Positions 42,801 through 57,800 of a stretch of DNA of 59,080 bases are shown piece after piece. The DNA is from Nitrospirae bacterium MYbin3 (GTDB lineage: Bacteria; Nitrospirota; Thermodesulfovibrionia; Thermodesulfovibrionales; Dissulfurispiraceae). The position numbers were made by a program. The stretch is taken from NCBI GenBank assembly GCA_002753335.1, contig PEAD01000003.1, forward strand, positions 124,001 through 183,080. The letters are read 5' to 3'. Within the stretch, counting starts at the first letter, position 1. Each line of letters begins with the position of its first letter.

Positions 42801-45800
42801 TCACTACCAAGGCAAAAGACCCTGTATGGAGGGTTCCTCCTTCGATTCAGGAAGAGATGGAGGAAGAGGGCAAGGAGGTTGTGGAAGAAGTGCCTCCCGG
42901 GCCCGATAATCCGCTGGGTAAATATTGGATCCAGCTATCTATAACCGGTATAGGCCTTCATGGCACGAATGCGCCAGAAAGCATCTACAAGTTTGCAAGC
43001 CACGGCTGCATGCGCCTGATGCCTGAAGTGGCCGAGTTTTTCTACAAAGACATAGCTGTAGGCACCAAAGGCCGGATTATCTATAAACCGGTAAAACTTA
43101 CCAGGACCGATAAGGGCCGAGTGCTTATAGAGGTTTATCGCGATTTTTATAAAACAGGTTTTAATTATCAGGATGAAGTAATGCGGCTTCTTTCGAAGTT
43201 CAATGCGATGAGACTGGTGGACTGGAATAAGATAAATGAAGCTATTGCGAAAAAGGATGGAATCGTAAAAGATGTTACAAAATGACGACTATCTTTTATA
43301 CAGAGGCTTGAAAGATTTTAAGATTTTTTCAAAGACTGCGTCGTACCTGTCTGTCGATTCTTTTGGGTATCTCAATCTCAAAACATAAAACCCTTCTTTT
43401 GCAGGCAAAGCAACAAAACGTTCAAACACAGGCCGCTTAGATGCTGTTGAATGACTTCTGAAGCTTGCTGTGGTTGGATCGTATGCAAGACCTTCGTAGT
43501 CGAATACTGTGCGCTCGAAGGTTTTCCCTTTTAGGGATGAGATGATAATATTTTTTACCGGAGAGTATTTTTCATCCTTGTCGCTCAGGCCTTTTATCGG
43601 CTTAGAAAAAGTTTGTATAAAATGAGCGTAATTTTTATACATAGTATTCCCTTTTGCATAGAAGTTAATCGAGATAGTTGCCGAGCCCTCGTCATTTTTC
43701 GTGAAAACTTTGGTTCCATAAATCCTGTTGAGGTCATTATTTAGAGATGGGTTTTCGTGTCTGCTCCATTTTTTTGGGATCAGGCAACTGAAGAAGCCTT
43801 TTGCAGATCTGTATTTTATAAATTCTATGTTGTCAAATATCTGATAGGCGTCAACAGTGCATATATTGCTGACGGTGGTGGCGATCAAAATAAATAGAAA
43901 AAATAAAAACTTTTTAGCAGTCATATATAGTTGTTTTTAATATTATCATTTTTATCTGAATTCGTATGATTTGAGCATAATGGCATGGGGAAAATTGCCC
44001 CGACATGTGTGGTAAAATTACCCGTATGTTCTCGGCTTTATAACAGTATATGGTTGTTTTATCAGGATACTTTTTATGGCACTAAAGTTGCATTTTCTGC
44101 CTACCTATGGCCGAGGCAGTAAGAAAAATTCTTCTTTGCAGCCAGCATCCTATATTTATAAAAGGCGTTTATGGAGCGCTCAGTGATGCCGGATATCAAA
44201 TTGAAACGAGCGAACATCCTGCCGGTGCCGTAAGGTCTGTATTTGATTCTTATTATTCTGTAGTAATTATTGATTCCAGAGATATAGGCTTACAAGCCTC
44301 GGATGCTGCTATGATAATCAGGACCGTAAGGCCTGATATTCATGTTGTGTTAATCGGAAAGTCCATTGTTGCTGATGGGTTTTATTCTGTAGAAAATCCT
44401 GATGAGATAGAACGAATAAAAGAGATTGTATCAAACATCTCAATTTTACATATGAAAGAAGCAAATAAAGGAGGAGTTTATGAGCATGACGCCGAGAGAG
44501 ATTGTATTAAAAGCCTTTGAGGGCGGAAAGCCCGAAAGGGTCCCTGTCACCCTTTTTGGTGGTGGGATGTGGTCTATAAAGGATTACGGAACCAGTTTTG
44601 AAGAGCTTTCCAATAATGTAGAAAAGATGGCTGATATGTGTATCGTGGAGGCAGAAAAGATTAAGAGCGACGTGGTGTATGTGGGGTCGGGTTTTAATAA
44701 TTTTCATATGATTGCGCTTGGTGAAAAGTTTGGGTGCGGCGTGAAATATCGGGAGATCGGCGCTCCTGATGTCACCTCTCATTTTGTAAATTCAGAGGAA
44801 GATCTTGCCAAGCTCGATATGGATGATATTCATAAACATCCTGTTGTTAAGACCGTGATGGACGCCACAAGACTGGTAAATCAAAAAATAGGCAAAAAGT
44901 ATCTTGTTACCATGACCTGCTGGGGCCCATTTACGTTGGCTGCCCGCCTGGTTGGTGAAGAAACATTTATGAAGGCAACATTTAAGAAGCCTGCCTTTGT
45001 CGAGAAGGCTGTAGATTTTTGCGCCGACCTTTTAATTAAGTTGTATGAACCATTGATTGCAGATGGCATGGAATGCATAAGCATAGCAGATCCGACCGCC
45101 TCTGGTGATTTAATAAACCCTAAACAGATGGGACGTTTTGCAGTGCCACCTTTAAAGAAGCTGAGCGACTGGGCCAAGTCGAAAAATGCCCATACAATAC
45201 TTCATATCTGCGGCAATACAGGTGACCGTCTTGAGCAGTTTATAGACACCGGCTGCAGCGTTATCTTTTTCGATCAGAAAGTTGATATAGCAAAGGCGCG
45301 AGACGTTCTTTTCGGCAAGATGTGTTTTGGAGGTAACGTTGCTCCTGTGCATGTTCTGTTGAACAAGACCGCAGCGGATGTAGAACAGGCCTGCAAAGAG
45401 GTTATAGAAATAGCCGGCAAGGATGGCGGCTTTATATTGGTTCCGGGCTGCGATATCCCACCTACAATAAGTTTTGAAAATATTAAGATGTTTCACGATG
45501 TTGCGTTGAACTGGAAATATTGATCCCGAGGGGAGGTGAAGAGCAAGGGCAAAAGGGAGTCTATGACCCCGTGAGTGGGGAGGTAAAATGGGACTTTTGG
45601 ATCGCATTAAAAATTTTCTGGCCGGAGAGCCGGACATTAAAGCAGAGGAGGAAAAGAGTATGGCGATGACTGCAGAACAAGTAAATGAGTACATGAAAGA
45701 GAAGTGCGGGTTTGTGCCGAGGATGTTTCAGATAATTAACACGGTAACACCTGATCCGGGCAAGACTTTTGCTGATTTTTATGCGAGTATCTTCGGCGAC

Positions 45801-54800: not shown

Positions 54801-57800
54801 AGGAACGAGGATGTATTTGTTGCACAGAATATATTTCACGCTGCCGAGGGGATAGATGTTGTGCCTGCCGCAGGCGTTGCTGTCGCAGCGCTGATGAGCG
54901 CAGTGAATTCTGGAGCTGTTCGCAAAAACGATACTATCCTGCTTAATATAACCGGCGGCGGAGAGAAGCATTTCAAAGACAAGAACAAGGCCCATATGCT
55001 CTCCGAGCCTGTTTTCGTGTCAAAAGACATTACCGATGATGATATGGAGAAACTGCTATGCGATACCCTGAAAAAGAACTCATAGGCATTCTTCAGGCGG
55101 CAGGCGTTGATTTCACCTGCTCGCTTCCGTGCGAGAAGATCAAGATTCTACTCGAAATGATTCAGGATAATTTTACCCATATCCCTCTTACGAGAGAAGA
55201 GGAGGGGGTGGGGATATGCGCTGGGGCTGCTCTTTCTGGACGTAAACCCGCAATGTTTGTGCAGAGTTCGGGCATCGGCAATATGATCAATGCCTTGCTT
55301 TCGTTGACCGGATTTTATGAGCTGCCGCTTGCTATCTTTGTAAGCCAGCGCGGCATTTATAAAGAAAAGATAGCTGCCCAGTTTCCGATGGGAAGGAATC
55401 TAACAGGGATTTTAGAGGGAGCGAAAATAGGTTATACGCTTATTCACAGGCGTGTGGATTTCAAAGTCATAAAGAGAAAACTGGACTCGATTTATAAGTT
55501 CGGAAAGATTCATGTTTTTTTAATTAGTCCTGCCGTATGGGAAAATTCTGAGGCGATAAGCAAAGGCATATCGGTTCAGCCGCATGAGAGAAGAACAGGC
55601 TTGGACAGTTTTCCCTGCACGCTGCATCCTGTTTCTCCGCCTGCCTTTACGCGTTATGAACTGCTTGGGGGCATAGCTCCATTTCTGTCTTCAAAAGTTG
55701 TTGTATGCAACTTGGGTTTTCCTGCAAAGGAAGTTTATGAGATTAAGCATCAGCCGTCTAATTTTTATATGCTCGGCAGCATGGGGCTTGCGACCTCGAT
55801 CGGCCTCGGCATAAGTCTGACAACAAAAAGAGAAGTTGTGGTTATAGATGGCGACGGCAGTATCCTTATGAACCCAGGAGGATTGGCAACCGCAGCTTAC
55901 AGCAATCCCCAAAACCTTACTATTATTGCGATCGACAACGGGGCTTACGGTTCAACCGGAAGCCAGCCTACGCTTGCCGGTTCATGCGTTGACTTGGAGC
56001 TTCTGGCTAAAGGCTTTGGGATAAGCAACACCATAAAAGTTTCTAAAATGAAGCAGCTCTCTGATGCTCTGAAAAAACATAAGCACGGGCTGTTTTTTGT
56101 CCATGCCCTCGCTATTCCGGGCAACCGTGATGTTCCGAATATACCTATAACTCACATCGAGATCAAAAAATCAGTCCAGAAATTTCTGAGTAAAAAGTAA
56201 CGGCTTCGTTGAATAGATTCTTTTTTGCATGTTAGTATTAAGCAAATGCGTATAACTCTTATAATTGCTTTGTTGCTTCTAGGTTTCTCCACGGTCAGCG
56301 GCGAGATATTTAAATACCAGTCTGACGAGGGAGTTGCATATTTTACCAATGCTGCAGTGGGAAACAAGGACAGGCCTGCTGCCGGAGAGTCCAAGTCCTC
56401 GGCCGTAAGGATTAACCCCAAACAGTATGCGGCTTTAAACAAAAGTTTTTTTCATGACATAGCGGAAGAGAAGGCACGGGAGCATAATATTGATCCTGAA
56501 CTGGTTAAGGCTGTGATAAAGGCAGAATCCAACTGGAATCCTGTTGCGGTGTCGAGGAAAGGCGCGCGCGGTCTTATGCAGCTGATGCCTTCAACAGCGG
56601 CTGATTTAGGTGTTTTAAATTCTTTTAATCCTGAAGAGAATATAGACGGCGGTATAAGGTATCTGAAGTATCTGCTTGAACGCTTCAACGGCAACCTTAT
56701 GCTTGCGCTTGCAGCTTATAATGCCGGGCCTAATCTTGTTGACAGGATAAAGAGCGTTCCGGCAATACCAGAAACAGTTTCTTATGTTCGGCGGATTATC
56801 AGGGATTATTCTGGCAGCGGTTATGGCAGCCGGTCTGCTATGACTGCGGTGAAAGGCTCTAACGGAGACAGGATACACAAGATAGTCAACAAAGACGGAA
56901 CGATACTTCTCACAAATACATACGCAGGAAAGCAAGAACTCTAAGATGCCTGTTGATCAGCAGTCTATTGTTGATGAGATACTGAGGCTCAAGAGCGAAA
57001 GAAACGCCGTAATCATTGCCCACAACTACCAGCGCGACGAAGTTCAGGACATTGCCGACCATACAGGCGATTCCCTTGAGCTGTCACGCATTGCCTCCGA
57101 AATCGACTGCTCTGTCATAGTTTTTTGCGGAGTGCATTTTATGGCAGAGAGCGCTTCAATATTATCACCGCAAAAAACGGTTCTTTTGCCTGAGTTGACT
57201 GCCGGATGTCCTATGGCGGACATGGTTCAGGTTAAGGGCATGCGTGAGGTGAAGAAAACATTTCAGGGTTATGAGGCGCAGCCTGTGTTTGCTTTTTCTC
57301 ACGAGTTTTCCCTTTTGGATATGAAGGCTGAACACCCGGGAGTTCCTGTTGTAGCGTATGTGAACACAACCGCTGAGGTGAAGGCTCACAGCGATATCTG
57401 CTGCACCTCTGCGAATGTGGTTAAGATTATAGAATCGCTGCCGGGTGATACCGTAATCTGCATACCTGATAAAAACCTTTCTGCATGGGCCGCTAAAAAC
57501 ACTAAAAAGAAAGTTATCGCATGGGACGGTTTCTGCCATGTGCATGACCGCATTACGGTCAAGGATGTTGAGAAAGCTAGAGCCGAACATCCAGACGCGC
57601 TTTTGATGGCGCATCCTGAATGCAGGATAGAAGTGCTTGAAGCTGCGGACCATGTTACAAGCACTTCAGGTATGCTCAGATTTGCGAAGGTATCCGATGC
57701 AAAAGAGTTTGTGGTCGGAACAGAAGTTGGGTTGATGCACCGGTTGAGAAAAGAAAATCCGGACAAGATTTTTCATGCCCTAAGAAACGATATGGTCTGT

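What a model noticed while it worked through the whole genome (the two positions that open the first line are those of the whole stretch)
44480..56200. Archaeal-type coenzyme M synthesis genes in a bacterial methyl-transfer operon
A 12-gene run (g01652-g01663) joins the Methanosarcina-type coenzyme M core (cysteate synthase and fused ComDE sulfopyruvate decarboxylase) with two MtaA/MtbA-type methyltransferases, an MtrH/MtgA-like methyltransferase, a corrinoid protein, its RACo activator and an HdrE/HdrD-like pair, in a bacterium without methyl-CoM reductase. The cluster is conserved in about 30% of Thermodesulfovibrionia. Inference: these bacteria make CoM or a close sulfonated thiol and use it as a methyl carrier linked to the Wood-Ljungdahl pathway.
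Evidence so far: Over NCBIfam cut-offs: cysteate synthase 468/325, ComD 179/148, methylcobalamin:CoM methyltransferase 261/244, MtrH family 319/287; 45% and 44% identity to the M. acetivorans enzymes, HdrD 38%. Cysteate synthase over the cut-off in 11 of 68 family genomes and 61 of 201 class genomes, in 15 of 22 families. Gene order is kept wherever the contig reaches: 6 of 10 family loci show the upstream methyltransferase block, and 8 of 12 bacterial loci show MtrH to ComDE in order. An SsuA-family sulfonate ABC transporter sits inside the cluster in 3 loci.
(Added by a program. Inside this text positions count along the whole contig: contig position 124,001 is position 1 of the stretch shown here. 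"Call 12" and the like, gene names such as g00115 and contig names such as C1 are that model's own, and its searches are not shown. The text may have been shortened before it was handed on; [...] marks where a part breaks off. The agent that wrote the report below was given it as the finding of a first reader that could run no searches.)

Follow-up and report, generated by a model that had tools for sequence, protein, structure and literature searches.

The report
Coenzyme M methyl module without methanogenesis
A sulfate-reducing bacterium carries one conserved operon, also present in non-methanogenic archaea, that joins vitamin-B12 sulfur-methyltransferase genes to the archaeal genes for the coenzyme M precursor, so these microbes likely make and use a "methanogen" cofactor to handle methyl groups without making methane, with the last synthesis step probably done by an unrecognised protein.

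Summary
Confirmed. Twelve co-oriented genes (44480-56200) encode two His-Cys-Cys thiol methyltransferases, MtrH, a corrinoid protein, RACo, an HdrE/HdrD-like pair, cysteate synthase and ComDE. Cysteate synthase occurs in 60 of 211 class genomes; all twelve genes stand in order in 24 of 33 long loci. The scan noted this operon before on other DNA (at least 8 findings). New here: (1) a conserved sigma-54 promoter (23 of 29 loci); (2) the same module in MCR-less Hydrothermarchaeota; (3) the whole ComF/L-ASST family is missing in 211 of 211 genomes, while a leaderless SsuA-fold protein (G000 contig C61) tracks cysteate synthase (58 both, 147 neither; 14 of 14 archaeal carriers) and flanks CoM genes in methanogens, including MMP16-less Methanocella conradii. 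It is a candidate for the last step or a CoM sensor; it also occurs beside MMP16 and in Geoglobus. Best reading (0.45): CoM or a close thiol is made and buffers methyl groups taken from methylated sulfur compounds on their way to tetrahydrofolate, with the Hdr-like pair cycling its disulfide. Product, substrate and direction are untested.

The parts
43987..44023 (+). Two imperfect palindromes (43987-44001, 44011-44023), likely binding sites of a sigma-54 activator
   Evidence: Sequence; paired palindromes of the same type recur 60-100 nt upstream of the sigma-54 motif in most aligned loci (seen by eye, not counted)
44077..44092 (+). Sigma-54 (-24/-12) promoter motif
   Evidence: Only exact match in the window, chance mean 0.06; motif with at most 1 mismatch in 23 of 29 loci, shuffles 1.2%, opposite strand 2 of 29
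44107..44520 (+). Degenerate receiver-domain protein, first gene of the operon
   Evidence: Weak response-regulator hits; present in 20 of 40 loci
44480..45523 (+). MT1, UroD-fold thiol methyltransferase, likely substrate-specific
   Evidence: MtaA/CmuA 199/235, below cut-off; best PDB match MtaA 4ay7 E 3.5e-32; His242-Cys244-Cys324 motif kept in 33 of 33
45588..46094 (+). CMD/AhpD-like protein with one conserved Cys (SPRC)
   Evidence: PF02627; best PDB match AhpD 5dik; SPRC in 30 of 31, no CxxC; median 79% identity across loci
46216..47193 (+). MtrH/MtgA-family corrinoid:pterin methyltransferase
   Evidence: NF002142 319/287; PF02007
47214..48242 (+). MT2, MtaA-like thiol methyltransferase, likely CoM-specific
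   Evidence: PRK06252 260.7/244; MtaA 4ay7 E 3.9e-52; His239-Cys241-Cys317 motif in 39 of 39
48242..48925 (+). Corrinoid protein (DxHxxG)
   Evidence: TIGR02370 212/215, B12-binding domains; single tblastn hit in the genome
48930..49589 (+). QueG/reductive-dehalogenase-like 4Fe-4S protein
   Evidence: PF13484, TIGR00276 below cut-off
49602..51593 (+). RACo reductive activator of corrinoid proteins
   Evidence: PF14574, PF17651, PF17650, PF00111
51594..51914 (+). DUF6951 protein with conserved Cys and His
   Evidence: PF22263; conservation
51924..52622 (+). HdrE/NarI/DsrM-like membrane cytochrome b
   Evidence: DsrM model 56/300; His80/His90/His191/His205; orthologue L070 is PF02665
52606..53826 (+). 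HdrD-like protein, two cubane motifs and two complete five-cysteine CCG motifs
   Evidence: PF02754 x2; best model TfrB 189.7/385; both CCG motifs intact in 45 of 45
53811..55085 (+). Cysteate synthase
   Evidence: TIGR03844 468/325; 44-47% to Methanosarcina sp.
55058..56200 (+). Fused sulfopyruvate decarboxylase ComDE
   Evidence: TIGR03845 179/148, TIGR03846 216.6/221.5, phosphonopyruvate decarboxylase 201/312

Best explanation
The operon encodes a B12-dependent thiol-methyltransferase system, a membrane Hdr-like pair and the two archaeal enzymes for sulfoacetaldehyde, and it likely makes coenzyme M (or a close sulfonated thiol) and would use it as an in-cell methyl carrier while methyl groups from methylated sulfur compounds are likely passed to tetrahydrofolate and oxidised. 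Steps: (1) cysteate synthase, a housekeeping aspartate aminotransferase and ComDE turn phosphoserine and sulfite into sulfoacetaldehyde (genes shown, activity inferred from M. acetivorans); (2) the thiol is installed without ComF, most likely by or with the leaderless SsuA-fold protein at G000 C61:2231-3130, or by reaction with the cell's own sulfide (inferred, weak); (3) MT1 demethylates a methylthio substrate such as methanethiol, dimethylsulfide or a methylthio acid onto the single corrinoid protein, kept active by RACo (inferred); (4) MT2 exchanges the methyl group with CoM, trapping it as a charged, non-volatile pool, and MtrH passes it to tetrahydrofolate for oxidation by MetF, FolD and Fhs (inferred); (5) the HdrE/HdrD-like pair exchanges electrons between CoM thiol/disulfide and the quinone pool, which could pull the uphill thioether-to-folate transfer (inferred; energetics recalled); (6) a sigma-54 activator and a GAF/PAS kinase switch the operon on (promoter motif shown, signal unknown).
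For: Family scores. Co-inheritance across 211 class genomes: cysteate synthase with MT2 58 both/149 neither; with the SsuA-fold protein 58 both/147 neither; all three in 57. Gene order kept in 24 of 33 long loci. The same orthologous module exists in the archaeal phylum of G211 (Hydrothermarchaeota by record title): cysteate synthase in 14 of 38, SsuA-fold protein in the same 14, 13 within 3 kb, MT2 in 11 of the 14; locus L091 holds DUF6951, MT1, HdrD, CMD, MT2, corrinoid protein, RACo, MtrH, cysteate synthase, ComDE and the SsuA-fold gene together; MT1 and MT2 each group across the two domains. Both methyltransferases keep the His-Cys-Cys zinc site that marks S/Se-methyltransferases (PMC10418091). 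Two thiol methyltransferases sharing one corrinoid protein mirrors the MMPA route of M. acetivorans. The SsuA-fold protein has no leader in 222 of 225 homologues scored, has the sulfonate-binding-protein fold (Z about 30 to SsuA/TauA, rmsd 2.4-2.8), invariant Cys/His/Asp residues, and lies within 6 kb of cysteate synthase in 41 of 80 methanogen-like metagenome loci; it is in M. conradii, which lacks MMP16 (S1 Table). High sulfide masks loss of MMP16 in M. acetivorans (PMC12068725), and these genomes are dsrA-positive (5 of 5). Known drains for sulfoacetaldehyde were not found: Xsc over cut-off 0 of 5, glycyl-radical enzymes 0 of 5. No methanol or trimethylamine methyltransferase in 4 bacterial carriers. 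FolD inserted in 7 loci, MetF upstream in 3, a chemoreceptor inside the operon in 8; MetF and Fhs in 5 of 5. Both CCG sites of HdrD are intact in 45 of 45, best model the CoM/CoB-oxidising TfrB.
Against: No COG1900 protein (ComF or L-ASST) in 0 of 211 class genomes and in 13 of 14 archaeal carriers, and the sulfide rescue in M. acetivorans happened with L-ASST present. The SsuA-fold protein is not a strict ComF substitute: Methanobacterium formicicum has it together with MMP16, more distant members occur in Geoglobus acetivorans and a Promethearchaeota genome, and M. conradii and Methanoregula still hold L-ASST. It may be a sensor: it neighbours an HTH protein in some methanogen loci and a possible ribbon-helix-helix protein within 2 kb in 17 of 45 bacterial genomes (fold match weak). 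Neither methyltransferase reaches the MtaA or MtbA equivalog cut-off, the family includes chloromethane/dichloromethane enzymes (PMC9768040), methylselenide enzymes and MtpA, which rejects CoM. With one corrinoid protein, CoM can only buffer; methyl transfer from a thioether to folate is uphill (recalled), so the reverse direction is thermodynamically easier. No CoB partner is identified. No metabolite, expression or culture data.
Confidence: 0.45

Rival explanations
1. Same thiol, opposite direction: methyl-tetrahydrofolate made from CO2 or CO is passed by MtrH to the corrinoid protein, to CoM and on to sulfide or methanethiol, so the cell exports methanethiol/DMS as an electron and sulfide sink, as recalled for CO-grown M. 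acetivorans.
For: Downhill direction for a soluble pterin-to-thiol transfer (recalled). Same genes, same His-Cys-Cys sites. Hydrothermarchaeota are described as potential carboxydotrophs (PMC6775978). Type 1 mlp clusters are proposed to dump methyl groups on sulfide.
Against: Inducible sigma-54 control with a dedicated sensor pair and a chemoreceptor in 8 loci fit an external substrate better; an Hdr-like pair is not needed for this cycle; ACS not found in 7 of 60 carriers.
Confidence: 0.2
2. The sulfonate branch and the methyl branch are co-regulated but CoM is not the methyl carrier: the sulfonate product serves as a redox thiol for the Hdr-like pair or stops at a non-thiol (taurine, isethionate), and the methyltransferases move methyl groups from a halomethane, methylselenide or other donor straight to tetrahydrofolate, as in the mec cassette.
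For: mec cassette has the same MT/MT/corrinoid/THF-methyltransferase/two-component layout. No ComF family. A paper reads a bacterial cysteate synthase as a possible taurine route (PMC12019592). CoM acts as antioxidant in Methanosarcina (PMC12713407). In 2 of 33 loci cysteate synthase-ComDE is split from the methyl block.
Against: The two branches are co-inherited genome-wide and in two domains; MT2 passes the methylcobalamin:CoM subfamily cut-off; Xsc and glycyl-radical enzymes not found in 5 of 5; reductases or transaminases for isethionate/taurine were not searched.
Confidence: 0.22
3. The system mainly salvages methyl-CoM or CoM disulfides released by neighbouring methanogens; own synthesis is only a back-up.
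For: SsuABC inside the cluster in L075 and ABC genes beside it in L088; SsuABC is the CoM importer of M. acetivorans; MT2 without cysteate synthase in 2 bacterial and 6 archaeal genomes, though these are incomplete MAGs.
Against: Most carriers, including G000, show no such transporter at the locus; synthesis genes are kept in 58 of 60 MT2 genomes.
Confidence: 0.08

Closest known systems
Type 2 (phosphoserine) CoM biosynthesis of Methanosarcina acetivorans (MA3297 cs, MA3298 comDE, MA3299 MMP16; PMC12068725)
   Same: Cysteate synthase and fused ComDE, adjacent and overlapping; housekeeping aminotransferase elsewhere.
   Different: No MMP16 or L-ASST; no MCR; genes sit at the end of a methyltransferase operon under a sigma-54 promoter; a leaderless SsuA-fold protein co-occurs.
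Methylthiol methyltransferase systems of Methanosarcina (MtpA/MtpC with a second CoM methyltransferase; 10.1101/548461; MtsA/MtsDFH recalled)
   Same: Two UroD-fold thiol methyltransferases sharing one corrinoid protein.
   Different: Adds MtrH, RACo, an Hdr-like pair and CoM precursor genes; methyl-CoM cannot be reduced to methane.
mec cassette of anaerobic dichloromethane degraders (PMC9768040)
   Same: MtaA/CmuA-type enzymes, corrinoid protein, folate methyltransferase, two-component regulator in one inducible cluster.
   Different: No sulfonate synthesis and no Hdr-like pair in the mec gene table seen; orthology with MecC/E/I was not tested.
Type 1 mlp gene clusters (PMC10418091)
   Same: Several His-Cys-Cys MtaA-like proteins with corrinoid protein and RACo in non-methanogens.
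   Different: Defined by the lack of a tetrahydrofolate methylase; this operon has one; the text read names no Nitrospirota, cysteate or sulfonate genes.
Bacterial CoM pathway of alkene oxidisers (Xanthobacter XcbB-E; PMC9457059, listing only, described in PMC12068725)
   Same: CoM made in a bacterium.
   Different: That route starts from phosphoenolpyruvate with unrelated enzymes and serves epoxide carboxylation; this one uses the archaeal phosphoserine enzymes in anaerobes.
HdrED / TfrB / DsrMK
   Same: Diheme-type membrane subunit plus CCG Fe-S subunit with both five-cysteine motifs.
   Different: Below every cut-off; thiol partner unknown; no CoB identified.

Membership tests
Type 2 archaeal CoM biosynthesis | Cysteate synthase | tested here: met
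   TIGR03844 468/325
Type 2 archaeal CoM biosynthesis | Sulfopyruvate decarboxylase ComDE | tested here: met
   ComD 179/148; ComE 216.6/221.5 just below; better than phosphonopyruvate decarboxylase 201/312
Type 2 archaeal CoM biosynthesis | Aminotransferase for cysteate | tested here: inconclusive
   Aspartate-transaminase-like gene at G000 C61 (NF004769 484.5/617); not in the operon; specificity unknown
Type 2 archaeal CoM biosynthesis | COG1900 CoM synthase (MMP16/ComF) or L-ASST | tested here: not met
   PF01837 0 of 211 class genomes, controls positive
Type 2 archaeal CoM biosynthesis | CoM produced | not testable with these tools
   Needs metabolite analysis
Soluble CoM methyltransferases (MtaA/MtbA) | His-Cys-Cys zinc site | tested here: met
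   33 of 33 MT1, 39 of 39 MT2
Soluble CoM methyltransferases (MtaA/MtbA) | Equivalog score | tested here: not met
   MT2 MtaA 253.6/400, MtbA 167/600; MT1 166.7/400, 165.9/600; only the broader PRK06252 subfamily is met by MT2
Soluble CoM methyltransferases (MtaA/MtbA) | CoM as methyl acceptor; sulfonate-binding residues | not testable with these tools
   Residue-level ligand data for 4AY8 not found
Type 1 mlp gene cluster | At least two Mlps, corrinoid protein, Ram/RACE, co-oriented | tested here: met
Type 1 mlp gene cluster | No tetrahydrofolate methylase within 20 kb | tested here: not met
   MtrH-family gene inside the operon (criterion)
mec cassette | Orthologues of MecA-J | not tested
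   No mec sequences were at hand; layout compared from the paper's table only
HdrED heterodisulfide reductase | Two intact CX31-39CCX35-36CXXC motifs and a four-His membrane cytochrome | tested here: met
   45 of 45; His80/90/191/205
HdrED heterodisulfide reductase | CoM-S-S-CoB as substrate, MCR in the genome | tested here: not met
   MCR alpha 0 of 5; CoB synthesis not tested
SsuA periplasmic binding proteins (for the companion protein at C61) | Signal peptide and TIGR01728 cut-off | tested here: not met
   76.5-92/163.5; 12 or fewer residues before the first strand in 222 of 225

The most novel reading that the evidence does not exclude
Sulfate-reducing Thermodesulfovibrionia and Hydrothermarchaeota share a methane-free coenzyme M metabolism for methylated sulfur compounds: they make CoM by the archaeal phosphoserine route, finish it with a new binding-protein-fold CoM synthase that also serves MMP16-less methanogens, and drive methyl oxidation by coupling CoM thiol/disulfide turnover to the quinone pool. 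This would supply the missing pathway for methanethiol/DMS turnover by sulfate reducers and a second ComF.
Probability: 0.22. Interest if true: 0.92.

Novelty: new variant of a known kind. Interest (0 to 1): 0.78.

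Why it matters
CoM as a methyl carrier is known only with methyl-CoM reductase. A conserved, regulated module in about 28% of an abundant subsurface and sediment bacterial class and in an MCR-less archaeal phylum would show the cofactor at work without methane, could explain how sulfate reducers turn over methylated sulfur compounds in competition with methanogens, weakens CoM and MtaA-like genes as markers of methanogenesis, and names a concrete candidate for CoM synthesis in organisms that lack ComF, testable at once in the existing M. 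acetivorans MMP16 deletion strain.

Tried and rejected
Complex prediction of the SsuA-fold protein with the small c13 protein gave no answer (score 0.02). No sequencing run was listed for the operon. The c13 model was poor (pLDDT 65) and had no significant fold match; PutA and Arc ribbon-helix-helix domains appear only at E 4.5 and 9.9, Pfam E 0.09. Direction of transfer: the MT2 tree nests the bacteria in the archaeal sequences (89/88) but archaeal monophyly is not rejected (p-AU 0.11); cysteate synthase and SsuA-fold trees give one bacterial group each but their outgroups are too long to root (quick trees). The idea that the SsuA-fold protein strictly replaces MMP16 fails on M. formicicum. 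The idea that it works with a ubiquitin-like sulfur carrier (lead from e1-5572959) is partly seen in methanogen-like loci (E1 22, LarE 15, NifS 13, MoaE 6, SAMP1 5 of 80 partly redundant loci) but none of these flank it in 20 bacterial loci. Acetyl-CoA synthase as a co-occurrence test is uninformative. A library-wide search with cysteate synthase was not run, so its range in other bacterial phyla (for example the capnine enzyme of Bacteroidota, recalled) is open. Sigma-70 promoter and terminator scans were at chance level. GC content of the operon (0.44-0.49) matches the window, so no recent transfer signal.

Full report
Observation. The run is real. Thirteen ORFs lie on the + strand from 44107 to 56200 with gaps of -41 to 121 nt. 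Family scans give, in order: a degenerate receiver domain, thiol methyltransferase MT1, a CMD/AhpD-like protein, an MtrH-family methyltransferase (319/287), thiol methyltransferase MT2 (PRK06252 260.7/244), a corrinoid protein, a QueG-like Fe-S protein, RACo, DUF6951, a NarI/DsrM-like membrane protein, an HdrD-like CCG protein, cysteate synthase (468/325) and fused ComDE (179/148; 216.6/221.5). MT1 is below all cut-offs, and neither enzyme reaches the MtaA or MtbA equivalog. Window cysteate synthase is 44-47% identical to three Methanosarcina sp. proteins.

Conservation. Cysteate synthase is over its cut-off in 60 of 211 class genomes, in 14 of 22 families; MT2 in 60 of 211, 58 shared, 149 with neither. 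Kin are not independent, but the pattern is patchy within families. Of 40 carrier loci fetched (chosen by score and contig length from the 60), 33 reach 11 kb upstream: 24 show all 12 genes in order, 5 miss only a tblastn hit for the fast-evolving HdrE-like gene (one checked is a NarI-family gene), 1 lacks the QueG-like gene, 1 is stretched by insertions and 2 are split. Insertions are telling: FolD in 7 loci, a chemoreceptor in 8, a second HdrE/HdrD pair in 3, SsuABC in 1, DsrE-like in 1; MetF directly upstream in 3. Catalytic motifs are kept: His-Cys-Cys in 33 of 33 MT1 and 39 of 39 MT2, both five-cysteine CCG motifs in 45 of 45 HdrD-like proteins.

Regulation (new). A perfect sigma-54 motif lies at 44077-44092, the only one in the window (chance mean 0.06), behind two palindromes at 43987-44023. 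The motif recurs in 23 of 29 loci with at least 500 nt upstream (4 shorter loci dropped; shuffles 1.2%; opposite strand 2 of 29). An NtrC-type activator (10 loci) and a GAF/PAS kinase (9 loci) flank the operon; their orthologues in G000 are on C7 and C65 (64% and 56%). The operon therefore looks inducible.

Host metabolism. G000 and other carriers have acetyl-CoA synthase (5 of 5), dsrA (5 of 5), MetF and Fhs (5 of 5) and no MCR alpha (0 of 5). MtaB is not found in 5 of 5 and MttB in 4 of 4 bacteria; the corrinoid protein has a single hit in the genome, so methyl groups must enter through MT1, MT2, MtrH or a third distant methyltransferase on C62. ACS is near universal in the class (192 of 211) and was not found in 7 of the 60 carriers. 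Xsc over cut-off and glycyl-radical enzymes were not found in 5 of 5.

The module crosses domains (new). In the phylum of G211 (record title: Hydrothermarchaeota) cysteate synthase is in 14 of 38 genomes and MT2 orthologues (49-57% identity) in 17, 11 shared. Locus L091 carries DUF6951, MT1, HdrD, an unassigned 301-aa protein, CMD, MT2, corrinoid protein, RACo, MtrH, cysteate synthase, ComDE and the companion gene below; L088, L095, L096, L097, L187, L189 and L192 carry parts. MT1 and MT2 each form a group that spans both domains. In print this shows only as table rows: 5 of 16 Hydrothermarchaeota with cs and comDE but no mcr, mmp16 or cog1900 (PMC12068725 S1 Table); PMC6775978 notes mtrH and methyltransferases without mcr (passages). 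Direction of transfer is unresolved.

The missing last step (new). PF01837, which covers both ComF/MMP16 and its back-up L-ASST, is found in 0 of 211 class genomes (controls positive) and in 1 of 14 archaeal carriers. A roughly 310-aa protein tracks the pathway instead: 62 of 211 genomes, 58 shared with cysteate synthase, 147 with neither (one of the four exceptions, G194, has it beside ComDE at a contig end); within 7 kb of cysteate synthase in 14 of 58 bacteria and within 3 kb in 13 of 14 archaea. In G000 it is at C61:2231-3130. It has the SsuA/TauA fold (model pLDDT 96; Z 30, rmsd 2.5-2.8; the same fold includes the enzyme Thi5 at Z 26 and cytoplasmic regulatory domains of CmpC/NrtC at Z 28-30), no leader in 222 of 225 homologues scored (18 of 243 did not match the motif) and invariant Cys74, His79, His120, Asp121, His214, Cys255, His298, His303. 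Homologues at 43-50% identity occur in Methanocella conradii, Methanoregula, Methanothrix and Methanobacterium formicicum; in 80 methanogen-like metagenome loci, many short or redundant, 41 show cysteate synthase and 34 ComDE within 6 kb and none a DUF39 hit. M. conradii lacks MMP16, as do 6 of 11 cs-bearing Methanoregula, although all of these keep L-ASST. Against an exclusive role: M. formicicum has MMP16 too, and distant members occur in Geoglobus acetivorans and a Promethearchaeota genome. It pairs with an HTH protein in some methanogen loci and with a small uncharacterised protein (45 of 211, all in genomes that have it; within 2 kb in 17). I rate enzyme or enzyme partner about 0.45, sensor about 0.4. 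Either way a CoM-linked, cytoplasmic sulfonate-binding fold shared with methanogens of both pathway types raises the odds that the bacterial product is CoM. Non-enzymatic thiolation by sulfide is a further option: 1.5 mM sulfide masked the MMP16 deletion in M. acetivorans, with L-ASST present.

Mechanism. I commit to: CoM-type thiol made in house (about 0.7), used through MT2 as a methyl pool for a methylthio substrate demethylated by MT1, with MtrH feeding folate oxidation and the Hdr-like pair moving electrons between the thiol/disulfide and quinone (overall 0.45). The His-Cys-Cys site points to S or Se substrates; two thiol methyltransferases on one corrinoid protein match the MMPA route, where MtpA itself rejects CoM. 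Thioether-to-folate transfer is uphill and menaquinone lies above thiol/disulfide couples (both recalled, no call), which gives the Hdr-like pair a role as a pull, and also keeps the reverse, methylthiol-producing direction alive (0.2). A reading without CoM as carrier (mec-like halomethane or methylselenide use plus a separate sulfonate) gets 0.22, salvage of methanogen CoM 0.08.

Literature. Nine searches listed no paper describing this operon; the library lacks most subscription papers. Seen: PMC12068725 main text parts 1-4 of 6 and rows of S1 and S4 Tables; PMC10418091 parts 1-3 of 6 and a term search; passages of PMC9768040, PMC6775978, PMC9635834, PMC12713407, PMC4045070, PMC3516359, PMC12019592 and 10.1101/2024.09.30.615893; abstract of 10.1101/548461; PMC9457059 as a listing only. 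Supplements of the Hydrothermarchaeota and Lake Towuti papers were not read and may list these genes. The scan itself noted the bacterial operon at least 8 times on other genomes; none of its findings held the word Hydrothermarchaeota with these genes.

Verdict. A real, conserved, regulated, cross-domain system built from known parts in an undescribed combination: new variant of a known kind, interest 0.78. If CoM is confirmed and the companion protein proves to be a CoM synthase, it would be a new metabolism and a new enzyme.

Noticed in passing
G000:C61:2231-3130 (L181:2231-3130): Leaderless SsuA-fold protein co-inherited with cysteate synthase in bacteria, Hydrothermarchaeota and methanogens; candidate CoM synthase component or CoM sensor.
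   Followed up: yes
G000:C14:35261-35830 (L184:3262-3834): Uncharacterised 190-aa protein (c13) found only in module carriers (45 of 211), often beside ComDE or the SsuA-fold gene; C-terminus weakly ribbon-helix-helix-like.
   Followed up: partly
L127:5497-6930, L161:3284-6942: In Methanomicrobiales-like loci an HTH gene plus the SsuA-fold gene are divergent from ATPase-GTPase-FeS-cs-comDE, a possible regulator of CoM synthesis in methanogens.
   Followed up: partly
L112, L138, L160, L162-L177: Sulfur-relay genes (E1, SAMP1, MoaE, LarE, NifS, TauE-like) cluster near the SsuA-fold gene in methanogen-like loci.
   Followed up: partly
L036:6515-8065 and 7 other loci: Chemoreceptor with an unassigned C-terminal domain inserted inside the operon.
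   Followed up: partly
L042:8153-8566 and 8 other archaeal loci: Pyridoxamine-phosphate-oxidase-like small flavoprotein convergent with cs-comDE-SsuA-fold in Hydrothermarchaeota; possible reductant for the last step.
   Followed up: no
L045:12480-12896, L090:13298-13675, L189:5301-6337, L095:2789-3436: DsrE-like, OsmC-like and thioredoxin-like genes join the module in some loci, pointing to thiol/persulfide chemistry.
   Followed up: no
G000:C62 (L185:4464-5483): A third, distant UroD-fold methyltransferase (26% to MT1) outside the operon.
   Followed up: no
G174, G208 (L046, L047): Two near-complete genomes of one genus carry the operon with FolD inserted but no acetyl-CoA synthase hit.
   Followed up: no
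L187-L190: Hydrothermarchaeota carry a further methyltransferase clade beside the module, and G224 has two adjacent methyltransferase blocks with MFS and binding-protein transporters.
   Followed up: no
window 39396-40046 (-): Secreted-looking protein with a long Gly/Ala/Ser low-complexity stretch, next to a YjbH-like outer-membrane gene and an L,D-transpeptidase-like gene (labels recalled, not scanned).
   Followed up: no
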